Shown piece after piece: positions 1,891 through 63,497 of a stretch of 64,000 nt of DNA (within the stretch, counting starts at the first letter, position 1; every line of letters begins with the position of its first letter). The notes under the pieces were generated by a model, which made no database searches, was not told where the DNA came from, and worked only from the letters and a program-made list of their open reading frames with translations. The position numbers and the translations under genes are program-made. Origin of the DNA: an uncultured bacterium (lineage in GTDB: Bacteria; Patescibacteriota; Minisyncoccia; Phycocordibacterales; JAACPR01); assembly GCA_937858275.1 (NCBI GenBank), contig CALLZK010000024.1, positions 1,567 to 65,566 on the forward strand, written 5' to 3'.

Positions 1891-1974
1891 TTTTTCAAAA
1901 TATTTTGATTTACACGATTCTTTTTTAATTTTTTAATGAAAGTGTTTATGGGGTGTTGGGGGCATAAGGAGTAT

Positions 1975-2003
1975 TTGACAAAGTTATTTATTTATGCTAG
2001 TAT
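1975..2003 (+). promoter_or_regulatory. sigma70-like promoter TTGACA-17nt-TAGTAT for the small GC-rich gene
   Basis: TTGACA 1975-1980, 17-nt spacer, TAGTAT 1998-2003. A 5'-UTR hairpin TACCGG-CAAAT-CCGGTA (about 2029-2045) lies just upstream of a strong SD (GGAAGGAG). Confidence 0.5.
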
Positions 2004-2058
2004 CATGGTCGAATTGAACAAAAAAATTACCGGCAAATCCGGTAGGAAGGAGATAGTA

Positions 2059-2373
2059 ATGAATAAATTGTTAAGTGGTCTTTTAATTGTTTTGGTGGTA
2101 TTTTTTATCACCACGGTCGCAGATGCCGTCGTCGTCCCCAAACTTGTTTCTATTGAGATTCAAAACAATGAAATTTGGGTGGTTTTTGATCGCGGCACCA
2201 ACACCCAATTTCGTTTGGAGCGGGCAGTTGGGGCGGATGGTGTTTACCAGCCCTTTACTCCGGGCGAAATTGTGGCGACGGAGTTTCCGGCCCCCAACCT
2301 TGTCCGTTGGCGACTAAATCCGGCGGTACTTGGTACCGCCCAAAGAACTTTTCGGGTCGCTACCTTACCGTAG
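2059..2373 (+). CDS. small secreted protein (104 aa) of unknown function, in a about 50% GC island
   Basis: ATG at 2059 is preceded by 'aggaaGGAGatagta'. Signal peptide 'MNKLLSGLLIVLVVFFITTVADA'. Stop TAG at 2371-2373. Codon usage is GC-rich, unlike its neighbours. The ORF track extends it to 1936. Confidence 0.6.
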   Translation: MNKLLSGLLIVLVVFFITTVADAVVVPKLVSIEIQNNEIWVVFDRGTNTQFRLERAVGADGVYQPFTPGEIVATEFPAPNLVRWRLNPAVLGTAQRTFRVATLP

Positions 2374-2390
2374 CAACTCAAAAATTCTTT

Positions 2391-2428
2391 AAACCCGAGC
2401 AGAATTAATTTTCTGTCTCGGGTTTCAC
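2391..2428 (+). terminator. rho-independent terminator (CCCGAGCAGA...TCTGTCTCGGG + T-run)
   Basis: Inverted repeat with one bulge, followed by TTT. It lies 18 nt after the 2373 stop. Confidence 0.6.
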
Positions 2429-2433
2429 TTTAT

Positions 2434-2462
2434 TTGACATATTGTTTTAAATATGATATTAT
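2434..2462 (+). promoter_or_regulatory. sigma70-like promoter TTGACA-17nt-TATTAT for the 2511 gene
   Basis: TTGACA 2434-2439, 17-nt spacer, TATTAT 2457-2462. Confidence 0.5.
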
Positions 2463-2510: not shown

Positions 2511-3509
2511 ATGAAATTAAAAATTATGAAAAATAGTTTAAAAGTTTTTACAGCAATTATTGTTTTATTGCTGGCTGTTTTTGTTTCTTCAAATTCTGTT
2601 AGTGCAGAAGAAGAACTAAATACAGAAATTGAAAACACAAATAAGGCAGAAGAAATTTCACAAATTTCCGCATTTTCAACTGAATCAGAAGAAATTGCTG
2701 AAGAAGAAGAAATTTTGCCACTAAGATTCATTTCTTGTTATCCGATAGAAGTAAACAGCAACACCGGTTTTAGAGTTGATTGGAGAGCGGAAATAACAGG
2801 TGGATCTGGTTCTTATAATTTATCATGGTCTGGAACTGACGGTTTATCTGGAAATTCCACATTGACTTCAATTGTTTATAATACAATTGGTTCAAAAACC
2901 GCTTCAGTTTCAAACATTGCTTCAACAGATGGACAAGTTTTGTTTGAAACATTTAATTGTTCTGGTTCTGTGACTGTATATCAAGCACCAGAAAATATTA
3001 CAAATACTCCAAACAATCCAAGTTCTGGCGGTTCAACTGGTGGTGGAAATATTACAACTGAAGATGGACAAGTTATTATAAATGACGGTTCTTCAAATAA
3101 TGTTCCAACACGAGGAGGGGGTGGGGGATCGGGTAGAGGAATTGATGAAGATACATCAAATTTAACAGAAGAACAAATGTTAGCATTAATATCTATACTT
3201 GCCATTTCTTCAACACCAACCTCAAATCCTGTTTTACCGACACAAATTTCTGCCATTTCAAATATTGTAAATAATCAAAATCAAGATTCCGATCTTGAAT
3301 TGGTTGAAATATTAGATGCAGAAATTGCTTTAGAAAATTCTGAAAATGAAAATCAAGGATTTCTATTGGCGGCGGTCAGTAATTTGGGTTCTGGAATATA
3401 TCAATTTGTTCTAAATAATTGGCTATGGCTAATAATAGCAATTTTGCTGATTGGATTTGTAATTTGGTTTATCTTAGTTAAAAGAAGAAAAGATCAAGAA
3501 CAAAAATAA
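2511..3509 (+). CDS. secreted or surface protein with signal peptide, acidic and Gly/Ser/Thr-rich low-complexity regions and a C-terminal TM anchor followed by KRRK
   Basis: Signal peptide 'MKLKIMKNSLKVFTAIIVLLLAVFVSSNSVSA'. Run 'GGGGGSGRG'. C-terminal 'LWLIIAILLIGFVIWFILVKRRKDQEQK'. Confidence 0.7.
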   Translation: MKLKIMKNSLKVFTAIIVLLLAVFVSSNSVSAEEELNTEIENTNKAEEISQISAFSTESEEIAEEEEILPLRFISCYPIEVNSNTGFRVDWRAEITGGSGSYNLSWSGTDGLSGNSTLTSIVYNTIGSKTASVSNIASTDGQVLFETFNCSGSVTVYQAPENITNTPNNPSSGGSTGGGNITTEDGQVIINDGSSNNVPTRGGGGGSGRGIDEDTSNLTEEQMLALISILAISSTPTSNPVLPTQISAISNIVNNQNQDSDLELVEILDAEIALENSENENQGFLLAAVSNLGSGIYQFVLNNWLWLIIAILLIGFVIWFILVKRRKDQEQK

Positions 3510-13908: not shown

Positions 13909-15252
13909 TTATAGTTTTGGTAAATATTGCATCGGATCAAGATATGCATTTAAATCAGCGAAAGGACCAGTCGCTCCAGTTGCCGCACATCCTGTACCAC
14001 CGGGTCTATATTCTCCGTATTTTCCGACTTTTACACCTTGCGAAGCATATATTGTCAAGTGCAAATGGGGGCCGGTTGTAACACCAGTATTTCCGGATAA
14101 TCCAATCATTTGTCCTGTGGAAACTTCTTGACCGACAACCACCGAAATACTTGAAAGATGGGCATACAAAGAAGTTAGTCCATTTGGATGTTCTACTAAT
14201 ATCCATTTACCCCAAGCATAACAGCCTGGATATGCATCTGTGTTCCCTAATCCAATTACTTTTCCTTGATAAACTGATTTTACTCTTGTACCAACCGGAG
14301 CTGCAAAATCTGTACCGGGGTGAAATGGTCTTCCATATATGTGAGGATTTGTTTTGGCAAATTGGGAACCACCAAATGCTTGTGTCACTCTTATACTATC
14401 TAATGGCCAAGACAAAATTCCATTTCTTGGTGCTGGATAGGATTTTGGATCTATTAAAATATTTAGTTTTGATTCTATATCCATTAATTCCCTTTCAAAA
14501 CTTTGTCTTTTTCTTAAGTTTTCTGCTAATATTTTTTGATATTCAGCCTCCTCATTTTTTGTTCTTTTAAGTAGGTCATCTTGTTGTTTTTTTGTTGATT
14601 CAACTGATTCCCTTTCGCTAGCTAATTCTTGTTTAAAAACAGATAAAATATTTTTTTCTTGTTGTTTTTCAATTTCTTTATTACCCAAATCGTCTATTAT
14701 TTTTTTTAATTCTATTATTTCTAAATTTATTTTATTTTTTAAGATTTCAGTTTGTTCTAAGTCACTCCAAAAATCAGAAATTGATTCATATCCTAATATT
14801 TTTTCTACAAAAGATTTTGAATTCAAGTCATTAATTTTTCTCATAGAAGAAGCTAGGGCATCAGAATTTTGTTTGATTAAGGATTCTTTTTGTTTTATTT
14901 CAAAACCAATTTTATCTATAAGTAATTCGGTCTCTATTATTTTTGTTTCGGTTTTTGTAATTTCAACTAAAAGCTTTTTTCTACTGGCTTCTAATTGTGC
15001 TAATGTATTTTGTAAAGTATTAGCTCTTCCACTAACACTTTGTAATGCTTGTCTTTGTTTTGCTATTTCAGCATCTATTTTTTGTAATTCAGTTCTTTTC
15101 TGATCAATTTCTTTTGATAATCTATCTATTTCTGTTGTTGATGCTGATGTATTTTGTGGTTGATTTGTTATTATGAAAAAACCAATTAAACATATTATCA
15201 AAAATACTGAAACAAGATTTATTTTTTTTGTGTTTATTTTTGAATTAATCAT
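13909..15252 (-). CDS. M23 family peptidase with N-terminal coiled-coil (EnvC-like murein hydrolase or activator)
   Basis: Signal anchor, long coiled coil, then M23 motifs 'HPGTDFAAPVGTRV' and 'HLHLTIY'. Overlaps the gltX stop by 8 nt. Confidence 0.85.
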   Translation of the reverse strand: MINSKINTKKINLVSVFLIICLIGFFIITNQPQNTSASTTEIDRLSKEIDQKRTELQKIDAEIAKQRQALQSVSGRANTLQNTLAQLEASRKKLLVEITKTETKIIETELLIDKIGFEIKQKESLIKQNSDALASSMRKINDLNSKSFVEKILGYESISDFWSDLEQTEILKNKINLEIIELKKIIDDLGNKEIEKQQEKNILSVFKQELASERESVESTKKQQDDLLKRTKNEEAEYQKILAENLRKRQSFERELMDIESKLNILIDPKSYPAPRNGILSWPLDSIRVTQAFGGSQFAKTNPHIYGRPFHPGTDFAAPVGTRVKSVYQGKVIGLGNTDAYPGCYAWGKWILVEHPNGLTSLYAHLSSISVVVGQEVSTGQMIGLSGNTGVTTGPHLHLTIYASQGVKVGKYGEYRPGGTGCAATGATGPFADLNAYLDPMQYLPKL

Positions 15253-31572: not shown

Positions 31573-32010
31573 TTATACCCTCCTTGGTTTAGGTGGTTTT
31601 GGTCCATTGTGTGGTACCGGGGTCATGTCTTTTAAACTATTTAATTGAATTCCCTTGCTAATAAAACTTCTGACTGAAGACTCTCTTCCGGAGCCAACAC
31701 CCTTTATGATAACATCAACTTTTTTCATTCCGACCTGCTCAGCTTTTTCTGCCAAAACTTCTGCGGCTTTTGAGGCAGCAAAAGGAGTTCCCTTTTTTGC
31801 ACCCTTAAAACCAAGAGCCCCGCTTGAAGATGCTCCAATAGCATTACCTTTTAGATCTGTAAGTAAAAGTGTTGTGTTGTTGTAAGTTGATCTAACATAT
31901 AAAATACCCGCCTCTATTCTTTTCTTGGATAATCTTTTGGCGGAAGCAGAAGACTTTGATGATGAGTCATCTGAGTTCTCTGTTTTTTTTACAATTCTTT
32001 TTTTTCCCAT
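31573..32010 (-). CDS. rpsK: 30S ribosomal protein S11
   Basis: 'GILYVRSTYNNTTLLLTDLKGN', 'PHNGPKPPKPRRV'. Confidence 0.9.
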   Translation of the reverse strand: MGKKRIVKKTENSDDSSSKSSASAKRLSKKRIEAGILYVRSTYNNTTLLLTDLKGNAIGASSSGALGFKGAKKGTPFAASKAAEVLAEKAEQVGMKKVDVIIKGVGSGRESSVRSFISKGIQLNSLKDMTPVPHNGPKPPKPRRV

Positions 32011-57191: not shown

Positions 57192-57264
57192 GGGCCGGTA
57201 GCTCACCTGGTAGAGCGCCTCACTTGCACTGAGGAGGTAGCGGGTTCAAGTCCTGTCCGGTCCA
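57192..57264 (+). tRNA. tRNA-Ala (anticodon UGC)
   Basis: Cloverleaf: acceptor GGGCCGG/CCGGTCC with G3:U70, D-arm GCTC..GAGC, anticodon stem CCTCA/TGAGG with loop CTTGCAC, T-loop TTCAAGT. 73 nt. CCA is not encoded. Confidence 0.9.
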
Positions 57265-62759: not shown

Positions 62760-63497
62760 TTAGGCAGTGCAACTTGCCGATGACACCCTGACCCTCATCC
62801 AGTCAACATGGGTATCAGCAGGCTTGGGCACATTACCGTAAGACTTCAAACGGTATTGAAACTCGGGCAAGGTCAAACGATTTAATATCGAGATCTGTCG
62901 AAGCAGTTCGTTGTATGTTTCATCTGCCGACAGGTTGCCGTTGTTTTTTACCAAAAACCTTGGCACATTCCTTGATTTGACCTCGCGATCAATCAGGTGG
63001 GCAACTTCATGGTAACGATGAATTCGTTTCCAAACCGCCTCTTCGTCCATGTCGTCGATACGACACTGTTCTTCCGCTCGCTTTTTAGCACGAGCAAAAC
63101 AAACATGTGGCGGAACATCGATTTCAATTGAAATGATGTCATTGCTTGAACTATATTTCAACAGATCAAGCATCAAAACGGCTTGTTCTTGCTCTCGCAA
63201 GATGCCGTTATGAATAACCACCGACAGTCCCCGTCCTTTCAGAACAGATTCATCAAGACCATCAAAAATTCTTTGGCCCTGATTATCTTTTCCGGACAAT
63301 GCACTTCCTCGCAAGATCACATGAAGGACCTTTTGAGTTCCACTTTGAGGAACTCGATAAAGTGCATCCTTCCAAATATTGTAAGCGATTTTGCACGGAA
63401 CATTCGCTCCGCGAGACATCATTTCACGAACCGAAGAAGCCAATTGCGGATCTTCGATTTGCTTTAAAAGTTCAGACATAACAATCATTCTTTTCAC
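62760..63497 (-). CDS. P-loop kinase-like protein (possible chloramphenicol-phosphotransferase-like or NMP-kinase fold) in a about 50% GC island
   Basis: GTG start at 63497 is preceded by 'ttGGAGGatagaa' (ATG alternative at 63488). Walker-A-like 'VILRGSALSGKDNQG'. 'IEIDVPPHVCFARAKKRAEE' resembles a kinase LID segment. Codon usage is GC-rich. Confidence 0.55.
   Translation of the reverse strand: MKRMIVMSELLKQIEDPQLASSVREMMSRGANVPCKIAYNIWKDALYRVPQSGTQKVLHVILRGSALSGKDNQGQRIFDGLDESVLKGRGLSVVIHNGILREQEQAVLMLDLLKYSSSNDIISIEIDVPPHVCFARAKKRAEEQCRIDDMDEEAVWKRIHRYHEVAHLIDREVKSRNVPRFLVKNNGNLSADETYNELLRQISILNRLTLPEFQYRLKSYGNVPKPADTHVDWMRVRVSSASCTA

What the first reader, a model, noticed from the sequence alone, without database searches (positions are those of the whole stretch)
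1936..2430. Second GC-rich island: small secreted protein with textbook sigma70 promoter, structured leader, strong SD and terminator
Bases 2059-2373 (about 50% GC against the AT-rich background) encode a 104-aa pre-protein. It has a clear signal peptide (..TTVADA|VVVPK) and an about 80-aa mature domain with no recognisable family. The gene carries a complete expression kit: TTGACA-17-TAGTAT, a leader hairpin TACCGG-CAAAT-CCGGTA abutting a GGAAGGAG SD, and a terminator. An abundant small secreted product of foreign composition in a host-dependent bacterium could be an acquired effector, an adhesin subunit or a bacteriocin-like molecule.
Basis: partly seen in the sequence, partly recalled or inferred. 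Interest (0 to 1): 0.6.

Follow-up and report, generated by a model that had tools for sequence, protein, structure and literature searches.

The report
Small secreted Ig-like protein gene
The GC-rich island is a real gene for a small secreted beta-sandwich protein that a narrow group of Paceibacteria (tiny host-dependent bacteria) inherited together with a neighbouring surface-protein gene, so it is not foreign DNA, although its codons stay oddly GC-rich in every relative.

Summary
ORF 2059-2373 (+) encodes a 104-aa pre-protein with a promoter, leader hairpin, Shine-Dalgarno site and terminator hairpin. It is the strongest GC island in the window.

It is a true protein gene, not an RNA. There is no Rfam, tRNA or tmRNA match. 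Against a syntenic homologue, synonymous sites are saturated (pS 0.8) while pN is 0.24-0.30. Ten homologues share no RNA structure.

The product is a signal-peptide protein with a confidently modelled Ig/FN3-like beta-sandwich (pLDDT 88). It matches no Pfam, NCBIfam, PHROG, PADLOC or PDB family. An exhaustive search of 1.84 billion proteins found only about a dozen small relatives.

In 7 of 7 loci with enough sequence, the gene sits directly upstream of a PKD-repeat, membrane-anchored surface protein, whatever lies upstream. This looks like a vertically inherited two-gene surface module.

The "foreign, acquired" reading is not supported. Relatives carry the same gene at the same place with the same raised GC3, while ribosomal-protein genes in the window do not. 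Each mRNA folds better than synonymous shuffles (mean z -2.0 against 0.0 in controls). That suggests mRNA-level selection, which is unproven. The function is inferred: an abundant extracellular partner of the PKD protein.

The parts
1975..2003 (+). Sigma-70-type promoter of the small gene: TTGACA, 17 nt (ending TGc), TAGTAT. The predicted transcription start is near 2010.
   Evidence: 10 of 12 matches, TG before the -10. The same TTGACA plus TGn-extended -10 arrangement precedes the homologous gene in L001, L005, L009 and L010. It is partly alignable with L001.
2027..2045 (+). 5'-UTR stem-loop (TACCGG-CAAAT-CCGGTA) directly before the SD, which it leaves unpaired. On the minus strand the same hairpin followed by T7 scores as a terminator.
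   Evidence: -8 kcal/mol, z -1.8. (minus-strand terminator-like site 2044..2028). Non-homologous 5'-UTR hairpins are present in L001 and L010 but not obviously in L005.
2045..2052 (+). Shine-Dalgarno GGAAGGAG, 6 nt upstream of the ATG.
   Evidence: AGGAG occurs before every homologue.
2059..2133 (+). Signal peptide (MNKLLSGLLIVLVVFFITTVADA, then VV), with n-, h- and c-regions and A-x-A at positions -3 and -1. There is no Cys and so no lipobox.
   Evidence: Sequence inspection. Every family member has an equivalent N-terminal hydrophobic leader. The AF2 model shows a low-confidence N-terminal helix. No signal-peptide predictor was available.
2134..2373 (+). Mature 79-aa Ig/FN3-like beta-sandwich domain plus stop codon. 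This is the GC-rich part (GC 0.54, GC3 0.51).
   Evidence: AF2 pLDDT 88.2, pTM 0.73. Foldseek returns only generic Ig/FN3-like matches. pN 0.24-0.30 against pS 0.8 versus L001. GC figures.
2391..2435 (+). Terminator hairpin (14-bp stem, -20.4 kcal/mol) followed by an imperfect U-tract.
   Evidence: Clearer hairpin plus T-run terminators follow the homologues in L001, L005 and L010.
2434..2462 (+). Separate near-consensus promoter (TTGACA-17-TATTAT, TG-extended) of the downstream partner gene.
   Evidence: 11 of 12. TTGACA promoters also lie between the small gene and its partner in L001, L005, L009 and L010.
2511..3509 (+). Conserved partner gene: a 332-aa protein with a signal peptide, an acidic linker, one PKD-like Ig domain (residues about 68-161), a low-complexity stalk, a C-terminal transmembrane anchor and a basic tail.
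   Evidence: It is homologous to the gene directly downstream of the small gene in L001, L005, L012, L014, L015 and L016. PKD_4 hits on the homologues are reported.

Best explanation
Bases 2059-2373 are a genuine monocistronic gene.

**Product.** It encodes a small Sec-type pre-protein whose mature 79-aa part folds as a single Ig/FN3-like beta-sandwich. It belongs to a rare, unnamed family of small signal-peptide proteins.

**Inheritance.** In this Paceibacteria clade the gene is inherited vertically as the first gene of a two-gene surface module. The second gene encodes a PKD-repeat protein anchored in the membrane by a C-terminal helix.

**Function (inferred).** The small protein is exported and acts outside the cell together with the PKD protein, as a soluble or non-covalently bound Ig-like subunit of a surface or attachment structure.

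**Composition.** The GC-richness is not a mark of foreign origin. It is a property of the synonymous sites that is shared by the family. It is most likely maintained by selection acting on the mRNA, giving a compact, stable and probably abundant message. This step is inferred, not shown.

**Shown:** gene reality, purifying selection, fold class, synteny, family-wide GC3 excess, and the absence of a conserved RNA structure.
**Inferred:** export, partnership with the PKD protein, high expression, and the cause of the GC3 excess.

**Confidence by step.** The overall figure of 0.6 averages steps of unequal strength. My own estimates are about 0.9 that this is a real gene for a secreted Ig-like protein, about 0.5 for the functional partnership with the PKD protein, and about 0.4 for mRNA-level selection as the cause of the GC3 excess.
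For: **Protein-coding.**
- The homologue P0002 is 61% identical in the mature domain.
- Nei-Gojobori analysis gives pS 0.79-0.81 and pN 0.24-0.30. Twenty-nine conserved residues use different synonymous codons.
- Synonymous positions vary freely across 10 homologues.

**Not an RNA.**
- No Rfam hit at gathering thresholds or at E<=10, and no tmRNA or tRNA.
- RNAalifold on the codon alignment gives an energy near 0 and z near 0 on both strands.

**Fold.**
- AF2 gives pLDDT 88 and pTM 0.73 for a beta-sandwich (six strands of 3 or more residues by DSSP in this model; seven strands in the full-length model).
- The only structural neighbours are Ig/FN3-like domains.
- Weak profile hits fall on proteins that carry fn3 repeats. 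An FN3-like 'xFRLERAxGxxGxY' motif aligns to 'GFKIERKTGATGTW'.

**Family.**
- Twenty-two hits in 1.84 billion representatives, of which about 12 are small signal-peptide proteins.

**Module.**
- A PKD-like partner lies directly downstream in 7 of 7 loci with enough sequence, while the upstream genes differ: DAHP synthase, topA, bipA, a Na/H exchanger and hypotheticals.
- YqeY and RmuC lie nearby in the window, L012 and L014.
- Housekeeping identities are 59-75%, against 35-61% for the small protein and 30-54% for the partner.

**Composition.**
- Domain GC3 is at or above the neighbouring genes in all 9 AT-rich loci, clearly so in 7.
- The ribosomal-protein genes and rpoA in the window have GC3 of 0.16-0.27.

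**mRNA folding.**
- The mean z against synonymous-codon shuffles is -2.0 in 10 loci, against 0.0 in 13 control segments (Mann-Whitney p 0.0016).

**Expression signals.**
- They are conserved in all five homologous loci examined.

**Literature.**
- Ig-like and PKD signal-peptide proteins are among the most highly expressed genes of unknown function in cultured Paceibacteria (PMC10936435).
Against: - There are no expression, localisation or interaction data.
- Adjacency is the only evidence for a partnership. The two genes have separate promoters with a terminator between them.
- More distant PKD-protein homologues (L020, L021) have no small gene within 4 kb.
- The folding excess is modest in the window itself (z -1.4 to -2.0). 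It is absent in L005 and L018.
- The other GC3-rich gene of the window shows the same excess, so the test may respond to mixed GC3 rather than to selection specific to this gene.
- The GC-matched control set is small.
- Signal-peptide cleavage was judged by eye only.
Confidence: 0.6

Rival explanations
1. Recently acquired foreign gene. The island was imported from a donor of about 50% GC and has not yet drifted to the host's AT-rich composition.
For: GC3 of 0.49 is five standard deviations above the window's genes. Codon choice (CCG, GCG, CGG, ACC) is atypical for the genome. One distant family member lies in a 53% GC contig (L018).
Against: The syntenic orthologue occurs in a relative with 60% DAHP-synthase identity, and the same module occurs in six more genomes. 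Synonymous sites are saturated, yet GC3 is still raised in most lineages. The promoter, SD and terminator are of host type and AT-rich. No repeats, tRNA or mobility genes flank the island. There is no phage link.
Confidence: 0.07
2. Repeated allele replacement. The resident small gene is frequently swapped by recombination with alleles from GC-richer Paceibacteria. This is common for surface proteins, and it would keep GC3 high without any selection on the mRNA.
For: The small protein evolves fast (35-61% identity against 59-75% for housekeeping genes). GC3 varies widely between loci, from 0.26 to 0.60. The anomaly is confined to the gene itself.
Against: The adjacent partner gene, also a fast-evolving surface protein, has uniformly low GC3 (0.14-0.24). 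The only member seen from a non-AT-rich contig (L018, about 53% GC) is a distant, N-terminally extended form. No GC-richer genome carrying a close allele was found. This model does not predict the folding excess over synonymous shuffles.
Confidence: 0.13
3. Translation-level codon selection. The GC-ending codons are chosen either as preferred codons of a very highly expressed gene, or as rare slow codons that pace translation for Sec targeting and beta-sandwich folding.
For: The strong promoter and SD suggest high expression. The GC3 excess covers the whole ORF, including the signal peptide (GC3 0.44), and stops at its borders.
Against: Ribosomal-protein genes and rpoA in the same window show no GC3 shift (0.16-0.27), so GC-ending codons are not the genome's 'optimal' set. 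Phe is TTT in 5 of 5 cases in the mature domain, whereas G-ending four-fold codons are enriched, which is not a tRNA-matching pattern. The partner, which is also secreted, has low GC3. The rare-codon pacing version is not excluded.
Confidence: 0.18
4. Structured non-coding RNA on either strand, with a fortuitous ORF.
For: The region folds far better than dinucleotide shuffles (z -4.4 on the plus strand, -7.0 on the minus strand). The leader hairpin reads as a minus-strand terminator.
Against: There is no Rfam, tRNA or tmRNA match. The substitution pattern is protein-like: pN is much lower than pS, and CGN and AGA arginine codons are exchanged. There is no consensus structure or covariation on either strand. 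The raw z-scores are inflated because an AT-rich and a GC-rich segment were shuffled together.
Confidence: 0.02

Closest known systems
Fibronectin type III (fn3, PF00041) and other bacterial Ig-like single domains
   Same: Beta-sandwich of about 80 residues, with seven strands in the full-length model. The structural neighbours are FN3 and Ig domains. The profile weakly hits proteins that carry fn3 repeats. The B-C-C' strand motif resembles the bacterial FN3 motif 'GFxIERxxGxxGxW'.
   Different: No Pfam fn3 hit, or any other Pfam hit, even at E<=10. hhalign probability is only 2%. The best Foldseek E-value is 0.07-0.14. It occurs as a free-standing small secreted protein rather than as a repeat in a large multidomain protein.
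Highly expressed signal-peptide proteins with Ig-like and PKD folds in cultured Paceibacteria (Ca. Yanofskyibacterium, Ca. Minisyncoccus; PMC10936435)
   Same: The same bacterial class, the same kinds of domain (Ig-like, PKD), signal peptides, and an unknown function proposed to lie in host attachment.
   Different: Sequence relationship to those specific proteins could not be tested because their sequences are not held. No expression data exist for this gene. The paired small-gene/PKD-gene arrangement and the GC3 anomaly are not described there.
PKD-domain surface proteins (PF18911/PF00801). This applies to the partner gene only.
   Same: The partner's homologues carry weak or faint PKD_4 hits, and the GGxxPYxxxWxGTDG-type repeat is conserved.
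   Different: The window's own copy gives no Pfam hit at threshold. The small protein is unrelated in sequence to the partner's domain.
Genomic islands / horizontally acquired genes recognised by atypical GC
   Same: A sharp local GC and GC3 anomaly.
   Different: The position is syntenic in divergent relatives, which show the same anomaly. There are no mobility signatures, and the expression signals are of host type.

Membership tests
Fibronectin type III domain (Pfam PF00041) | Match to the family HMM at or above its gathering score | tested here: not met
   hmmscan against Pfam-A at E<=10 gave 0 families for the window protein and for P0002. None was found for P0003, P0006, P0008, P0010 or P0019.
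Fibronectin type III domain (Pfam PF00041) | Seven-strand Ig-like beta-sandwich of about 80-100 residues | tested here: met
   AF2 models with pLDDT 77 (full length) and 88 (mature domain) are all-beta sandwiches. Foldseek neighbours are FN3/Ig domains with TM up to 0.64, but E>=0.07.
Sec-dependent secreted protein (type I signal peptide) | N-terminal basic n-region, a hydrophobic h-region of 10-15 residues, and a c-region with small residues at -3 and -1 | tested here: met
   MNK / LLSGLLIVLVVFFI / TTVADA followed by VV, judged by inspection. An equivalent leader is present in all 14 family members. No dedicated predictor was available, so cleavage is inferred.
Lipoprotein (type II signal peptide) | Lipobox with an invariant Cys at +1 | tested here: not met
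   There is no Cys anywhere in the 104-aa sequence.
Known structured RNA families (Rfam 15), tmRNA, tRNA | Covariance-model match, or conserved base pairs with covariation | tested here: not met
   There is no match at gathering thresholds in the window apart from one tRNA-Ala elsewhere. Only chance-level hits (E>1) occur in 1850-2520. ARAGORN found nothing. RNAalifold gave no consensus structure.
Horizontally acquired genomic island | Atypical base composition relative to the genome | tested here: met
   GC up to 0.587 against 0.297. GC3 of 0.49 against 0.20 with sd 0.056.
Horizontally acquired genomic island | Absent from, or differently placed in, related genomes, with mobility genes, a tRNA or direct repeats at the borders | tested here: not met
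   Syntenic orthologues occur in L001, and the same two-gene module in L005, L012, L014, L015 and L016. No repeat of the region exists in the window. No tRNA is nearby. No phage family or convincing viral contig was found.
Bacteriocin / secreted peptide toxin locus | Family match of the precursor, with adjacent immunity, modification or ABC-export genes | tested here: not met
   There are no Pfam, NCBIfam or PADLOC matches beyond a signal-peptide-only hit. The neighbours are DAHP synthase and a PKD surface protein.
Diversity-generating retroelement target (variable region) | A near-identical template repeat and a reverse transcriptase nearby | tested here: not met
   blastn of 1900-2449 against the whole 64-kb window found only chance hits of 45 nt or less.
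Rho-independent terminator (downstream element) | GC-rich hairpin directly followed by a U-tract | tested here: inconclusive
   The hairpin is strong (-20.4 kcal/mol, z -6), but the tail is CACUUUAUUU and the consensus scan did not report it. Homologues have clearer U-tracts.

The most novel reading that the evidence does not exclude
A clade-specific family of small secreted Ig-like proteins in ultra-small, AT-rich Paceibacteria is under family-wide selection on its synonymous sites. That selection keeps the message GC-rich and tightly folded, without any conserved structure. It would make this one of the most stable and abundant mRNAs of the cell, feeding a major surface component that works with the adjacent PKD anchor protein in host attachment. 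It would be a clean natural example of selection for bulk mRNA 'structuredness' overriding strong AT mutation pressure in a reduced genome.
Probability: 0.2. Interest if true: 0.6.

Novelty: new variant of a known kind. Interest (0 to 1): 0.38.

Why it matters
Paceibacteria and other candidate-phyla-radiation bacteria depend on host cells, and almost nothing is known about the surface molecules they use. This work defines a conserved pair: a small secreted Ig-like protein and a membrane-anchored PKD protein, each with a strong promoter of its own. That gives a concrete candidate for a surface or attachment module that can be tested in the few existing co-cultures.

It also carries a caution for genome scans. 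A sharp GC island in an AT-rich genome was neither an RNA gene nor foreign DNA here.

The persistent GC3 excess, together with better-than-expected mRNA folding across homologues whose synonymous sites are saturated, is unexplained and deserves an expression and half-life measurement.

Finally, the public annotation of this gene (145 aa, starting at base 1936) probably uses the wrong start codon, which hides the signal peptide.

Tried and rejected
- **Known RNA families.** Rfam at gathering thresholds over the whole window, Rfam at E<=10 on 1850-2520, and ARAGORN found nothing relevant.
- **Whole-region folding z-scores**. I rejected these as evidence for an RNA gene, because shuffling AT-rich UTRs together with a GC-rich ORF inflates them.
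- **Repeat or DGR search** by blastn and tblastn within the window found only chance hits.
- **Scans of GTDB species-representative genomes.** Two scans with peptide patterns found no relatives. The 14-sequence alignment was too divergent to derive patterns.
- **Metagenome scan** gave one extra locus only, L011.
- **Viral contig scan** gave only a 24-residue match, which I treated as spurious. PHROGs gave nothing.
- **Family libraries.** Pfam, NCBIfam, PADLOC and PDB sequence-profile searches found no family.
- **Relation to the partner's PKD domain.** hhalign of the family against the partner protein showed none.
- **Conserved RNA structure.** RNAalifold on the codon alignment found none on either strand.
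- **First synonymous-shuffle run** timed out and was repeated in smaller runs.
- **Literature search** on GC3 and mRNA stability in AT-rich bacteria gave no directly applicable precedent.
Full report
**1. What is in the sequence**

- The promoter is TTGACA (1975-1980), a 17-nt spacer ending in TGc, then TAGTAT (1998-2003). It matches 10 of 12 consensus positions with an extended -10.
- A 6-7 bp hairpin, TACCGG-CAAAT-CCGGTA, lies at 2028-2044 (-8 kcal/mol, z -1.8). It abuts GGAAGGAG at 2045-2052.
- The ATG is at 2059 and the stop codon ends at 2373, giving 104 aa.
- A 14-bp hairpin lies at 2391-2425 (-20.4 kcal/mol, z -6.0). Its U-tract is imperfect, and the consensus scan did not call it a terminator.

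The window averages 29.7% GC. In 150-nt windows (sd 5.9%), this island reaches 58.7%, the highest value in the 64 kb. The anomaly lies mainly at synonymous sites. GC3 is 0.49, against 0.20 with sd 0.056 for 67 ORFs in the window.

Promoter-like hits alone are no more common here than in shuffles (4 found, 5.4 expected). That element is credible only because of conservation in homologues (section 3).

**2. RNA or protein?**

A GC island in an AT-rich genome usually suggests a structured RNA, so I tested that first.

- Rfam at gathering thresholds found only a tRNA-Ala at 57192.
- A permissive scan of 1850-2520 gave only chance-level hits with E>1.
- ARAGORN found no tmRNA.
- The region folds much better than dinucleotide shuffles on both strands (z -4.4 and -7.0). 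That comparison mixes AT-rich UTRs with a GC-rich ORF and is inflated.

The decisive evidence came from a homologue.

- P0002 (103 aa) is 61% identical over the mature domain.
- It lies in L001 (GCA_007116875.1) in the same position, between a DAHP synthase and a signal-peptide/TM protein.
- In the codon alignment, 29 conserved residues use different synonymous codons, including exchanges between CGN and AGA arginine codons.
- The Nei-Gojobori estimates are pS 0.79-0.81, which is saturated, and pN 0.24-0.30.
- Across ten homologues the third positions vary freely.
- RNAalifold finds no consensus structure on either strand. The energy is about 0, and z is about 0 against codon-column shuffles.

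The ORF is therefore a real gene under purifying selection on the protein. The fortuitous-ORF idea is rejected.

**3. The protein and its family**

*Signal peptide.* The N-terminus has the form of a type I signal peptide: MNK, then a 14-residue hydrophobic core, then TTVADA followed by VV. It contains no Cys, so it is not a lipoprotein. I judged this by eye because no predictor was available.

*Fold.*
- AlphaFold2 with a 15-sequence alignment gives a confident beta-sandwich for the mature 79 residues (pLDDT 88.2, pTM 0.73).
- A first model with only two sequences gave pLDDT 77.
- Foldseek against the PDB returns only generic Ig/FN3-like domains: cytokine-receptor FN3, the TarK N-terminal domain and Ig-beta. 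The best E-values are 0.07-0.14 and TM reaches at most 0.64.

*Family membership.* Pfam, NCBIfam, PHROGs, PADLOC and a profile search of PDB sequences give no family.

*Relatives.*
- An exhaustive HMMER search of 1.84 billion representatives found 22 proteins at E<=1e-3.
- About a dozen are small (103-228 aa) signal-peptide proteins. They share the motif YG.NT.FRL.RA.GP.G.YQPF.PGE.V...F......W........R.F[RK]V.
- The weakest hits lie on giant proteins, of which P0017 and P0022 carry fn3 repeats by Pfam. The motif aligns with an FN3 B-C-C' segment at low probability.
- I read the family as new and very divergent, within the Ig/FN3-like fold class. It is not a member of Pfam fn3.
- All members are unnamed metagenome proteins. 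The window's copy is annotated 'hypothetical protein, Candidatus Paceibacterota bacterium'.

*Probable wrong start in the public annotation.* The public model (P0001) is 145 aa and starts at 1936. That start is probably wrong for three reasons:
- the promoter lies inside the extension;
- the SD precedes 2059;
- all homologues begin at the position of Met42.

*Expression signals in homologues.* A TTGACA / TGn-extended -10 promoter and a strong AGGAG SD precede the gene in all five homologous loci examined. Hairpin plus T-run terminators follow it in L001, L005 and L010.

**4. Genomic context**

I recovered DNA for ten loci.

- In every locus with enough downstream sequence, the next gene is a homologue of window 2511-3509 (blastp E from 1e-12 to 4e-55). 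These seven loci are the window, L001, L005, L012, L014, L015 and L016.
- That partner has a signal peptide, one to three PKD-like Ig repeats, a low-complexity stalk, a C-terminal transmembrane helix and a basic tail.
- The upstream gene differs between loci. It is DAHP synthase, topA, bipA, a Na/H exchanger or a hypothetical gene.
- L012 and L014 keep yqeY and rmuC close by, as the window does.
- Housekeeping proteins are 59-75% identical between these genomes. The small protein is 35-61% identical and the partner 30-54%. Surface proteins inherited vertically would be expected to look like this.
- The two genes are separate transcription units. A terminator hairpin and a near-consensus promoter (2434-2462, 11 of 12 matches) lie between them.
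- More distant homologues of the PKD protein (L020, L021) have no small gene within 4 kb. Species-representative genomes yielded no relatives with the patterns used. The small gene is therefore confined to a narrow clade and is not universal.
- There is no phage association, no repeat of the region in the window and no tRNA at its borders.

**5. Why is it GC-rich?**

Recent import is not supported. GC3 of the domain, compared with the neighbouring genes, is shown below.

| Locus | Domain GC3 | Neighbouring genes GC3 |
|---|---|---|
| window | 0.51 | 0.14-0.20 |
| L001 | 0.39 | 0.23-0.30 |
| L009 | 0.40 | 0.21 |
| L010 | 0.60 | 0.39 |
| L012 | 0.60 | 0.19-0.38 |
| L014 | 0.58 | 0.18-0.42 |
| L015 | 0.46 | 0.20-0.39 |
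| L016 | 0.33 | 0.19-0.33 |
| L005 | 0.26 | 0.16-0.28 |

- The excess is present in all nine AT-rich loci and is clear in seven. Because synonymous sites are saturated between lineages, an old import would long since have drifted to the host's composition.
- It is not ordinary expression-linked codon bias. S9, L13, L17, S4, S11, S13 and rpoA in the same window have GC3 of 0.16-0.27.
- The partner gene has low GC3 throughout (0.14-0.24).
- The synonymous codons of the 240-nt domain region are arranged so that the mRNA folds better than shuffles that preserve both the protein and the codon usage. The z-scores run from -0.7 to -4.3 in the nine AT-rich loci, with a mean of -2.0 over all ten. Thirteen control segments from neighbouring genes average 0.0 (Mann-Whitney p 0.0016).

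There is no conserved structure. The most economical reading is therefore selection for a generally compact, GC-rich and stable message, not for a specific fold. This is an inference and has weaknesses:

- the effect in the window itself is modest;
- L005 and L018 lack it;
- the other GC3-rich gene of the window shows it too.

Two alternatives are not excluded: repeated allele replacement from GC-richer relatives, and codon pacing of translation.

**6. Likely function**

*Shown:*
- a real, conserved gene with a signal-peptide-type leader;
- an Ig-like fold;
- strong, conserved expression signals;
- obligate adjacency to a membrane-anchored PKD protein within this clade.

*Inferred:* the protein is exported by Sec and released from its signal peptide. 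It then acts at the cell surface with the PKD protein, for example as a soluble Ig-like subunit bound to the PKD stalk in a surface layer or attachment structure.

In cultured Paceibacteria that parasitise methanogens, signal-peptide proteins with Ig-like and PKD folds are among the most highly expressed genes of unknown function, and were proposed to mediate host attachment (PMC10936435). I could not test whether those proteins are homologues of this one.

**7. Verdict**

The secreted, well-expressed, possibly adhesin-related reading stands. The foreign-origin reading does not, and the RNA alternative is refuted.

This is a new, rare family of a familiar fold class in an understudied lineage, with an unexplained family-wide composition anomaly. 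I rate its interest as moderate.

Noticed in passing
window 62760-63497 (-): This is the second GC3 outlier of the window (GC3 0.42, GC1 0.54, against a gene mean of 0.20). It is a 245-aa ORF with no Pfam or PADLOC family and only faint adenylate/UMP-CMP-kinase-like NCBIfam hits (E 4e-7, far below the cut-offs). A hairpin plus T-run follows it. It also folds better than synonymous shuffles (z -2.8 and -4.2 on the sense strand).
   Followed up: partly
window 1936-2058 (+): The public annotation of this gene (P0001, 145 aa, 'PJ997_00025') starts at the ATG at 1936. That start reads through the promoter and 5' UTR and buries the signal peptide. Homologues and the SD point to 2059 as the true start.
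   Followed up: yes
window 2044-2028 (-): The leader hairpin is preceded on the plus strand by A7, so on the minus strand it scores as an intrinsic terminator (hairpin followed by ATTTTTTTGT). L001 has an analogous A6-plus-hairpin in its 5' UTR. No minus-strand gene nearby would need it. It could stop antisense transcription or simply act as a 5' stabiliser.
   Followed up: partly
window 2511-3509 (+), and its homologues in L001, L005, L012, L014, L015 and L016: The partner is a PKD-like surface protein with a conserved 'ITGG.GPY...WSGTDGLSG' repeat. It has one copy here and two or three in relatives. It also has a low-complexity stalk and a C-terminal TM anchor. GC3 is consistently at or below the genomic background.
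   Followed up: partly
window 13926-14126 and 31676-31826: These are minor GC bumps (0.46-0.47 in 150-nt windows). They lie inside an M23-peptidase gene (13909-15252, minus strand) and the ribosomal protein S11 gene (31573-32010, minus strand). The GC3 of those genes is ordinary (0.15 and 0.27), so the bumps probably reflect amino-acid composition.
   Followed up: no
L018 (ENA scaffold, about 53% GC): A distant family member (P0010, 167 aa, with an N-terminal extension of about 90 aa) lies in a much GC-richer contig next to an MGS-domain gene. This shows that the family is not strictly confined to AT-rich genomes.
   Followed up: no
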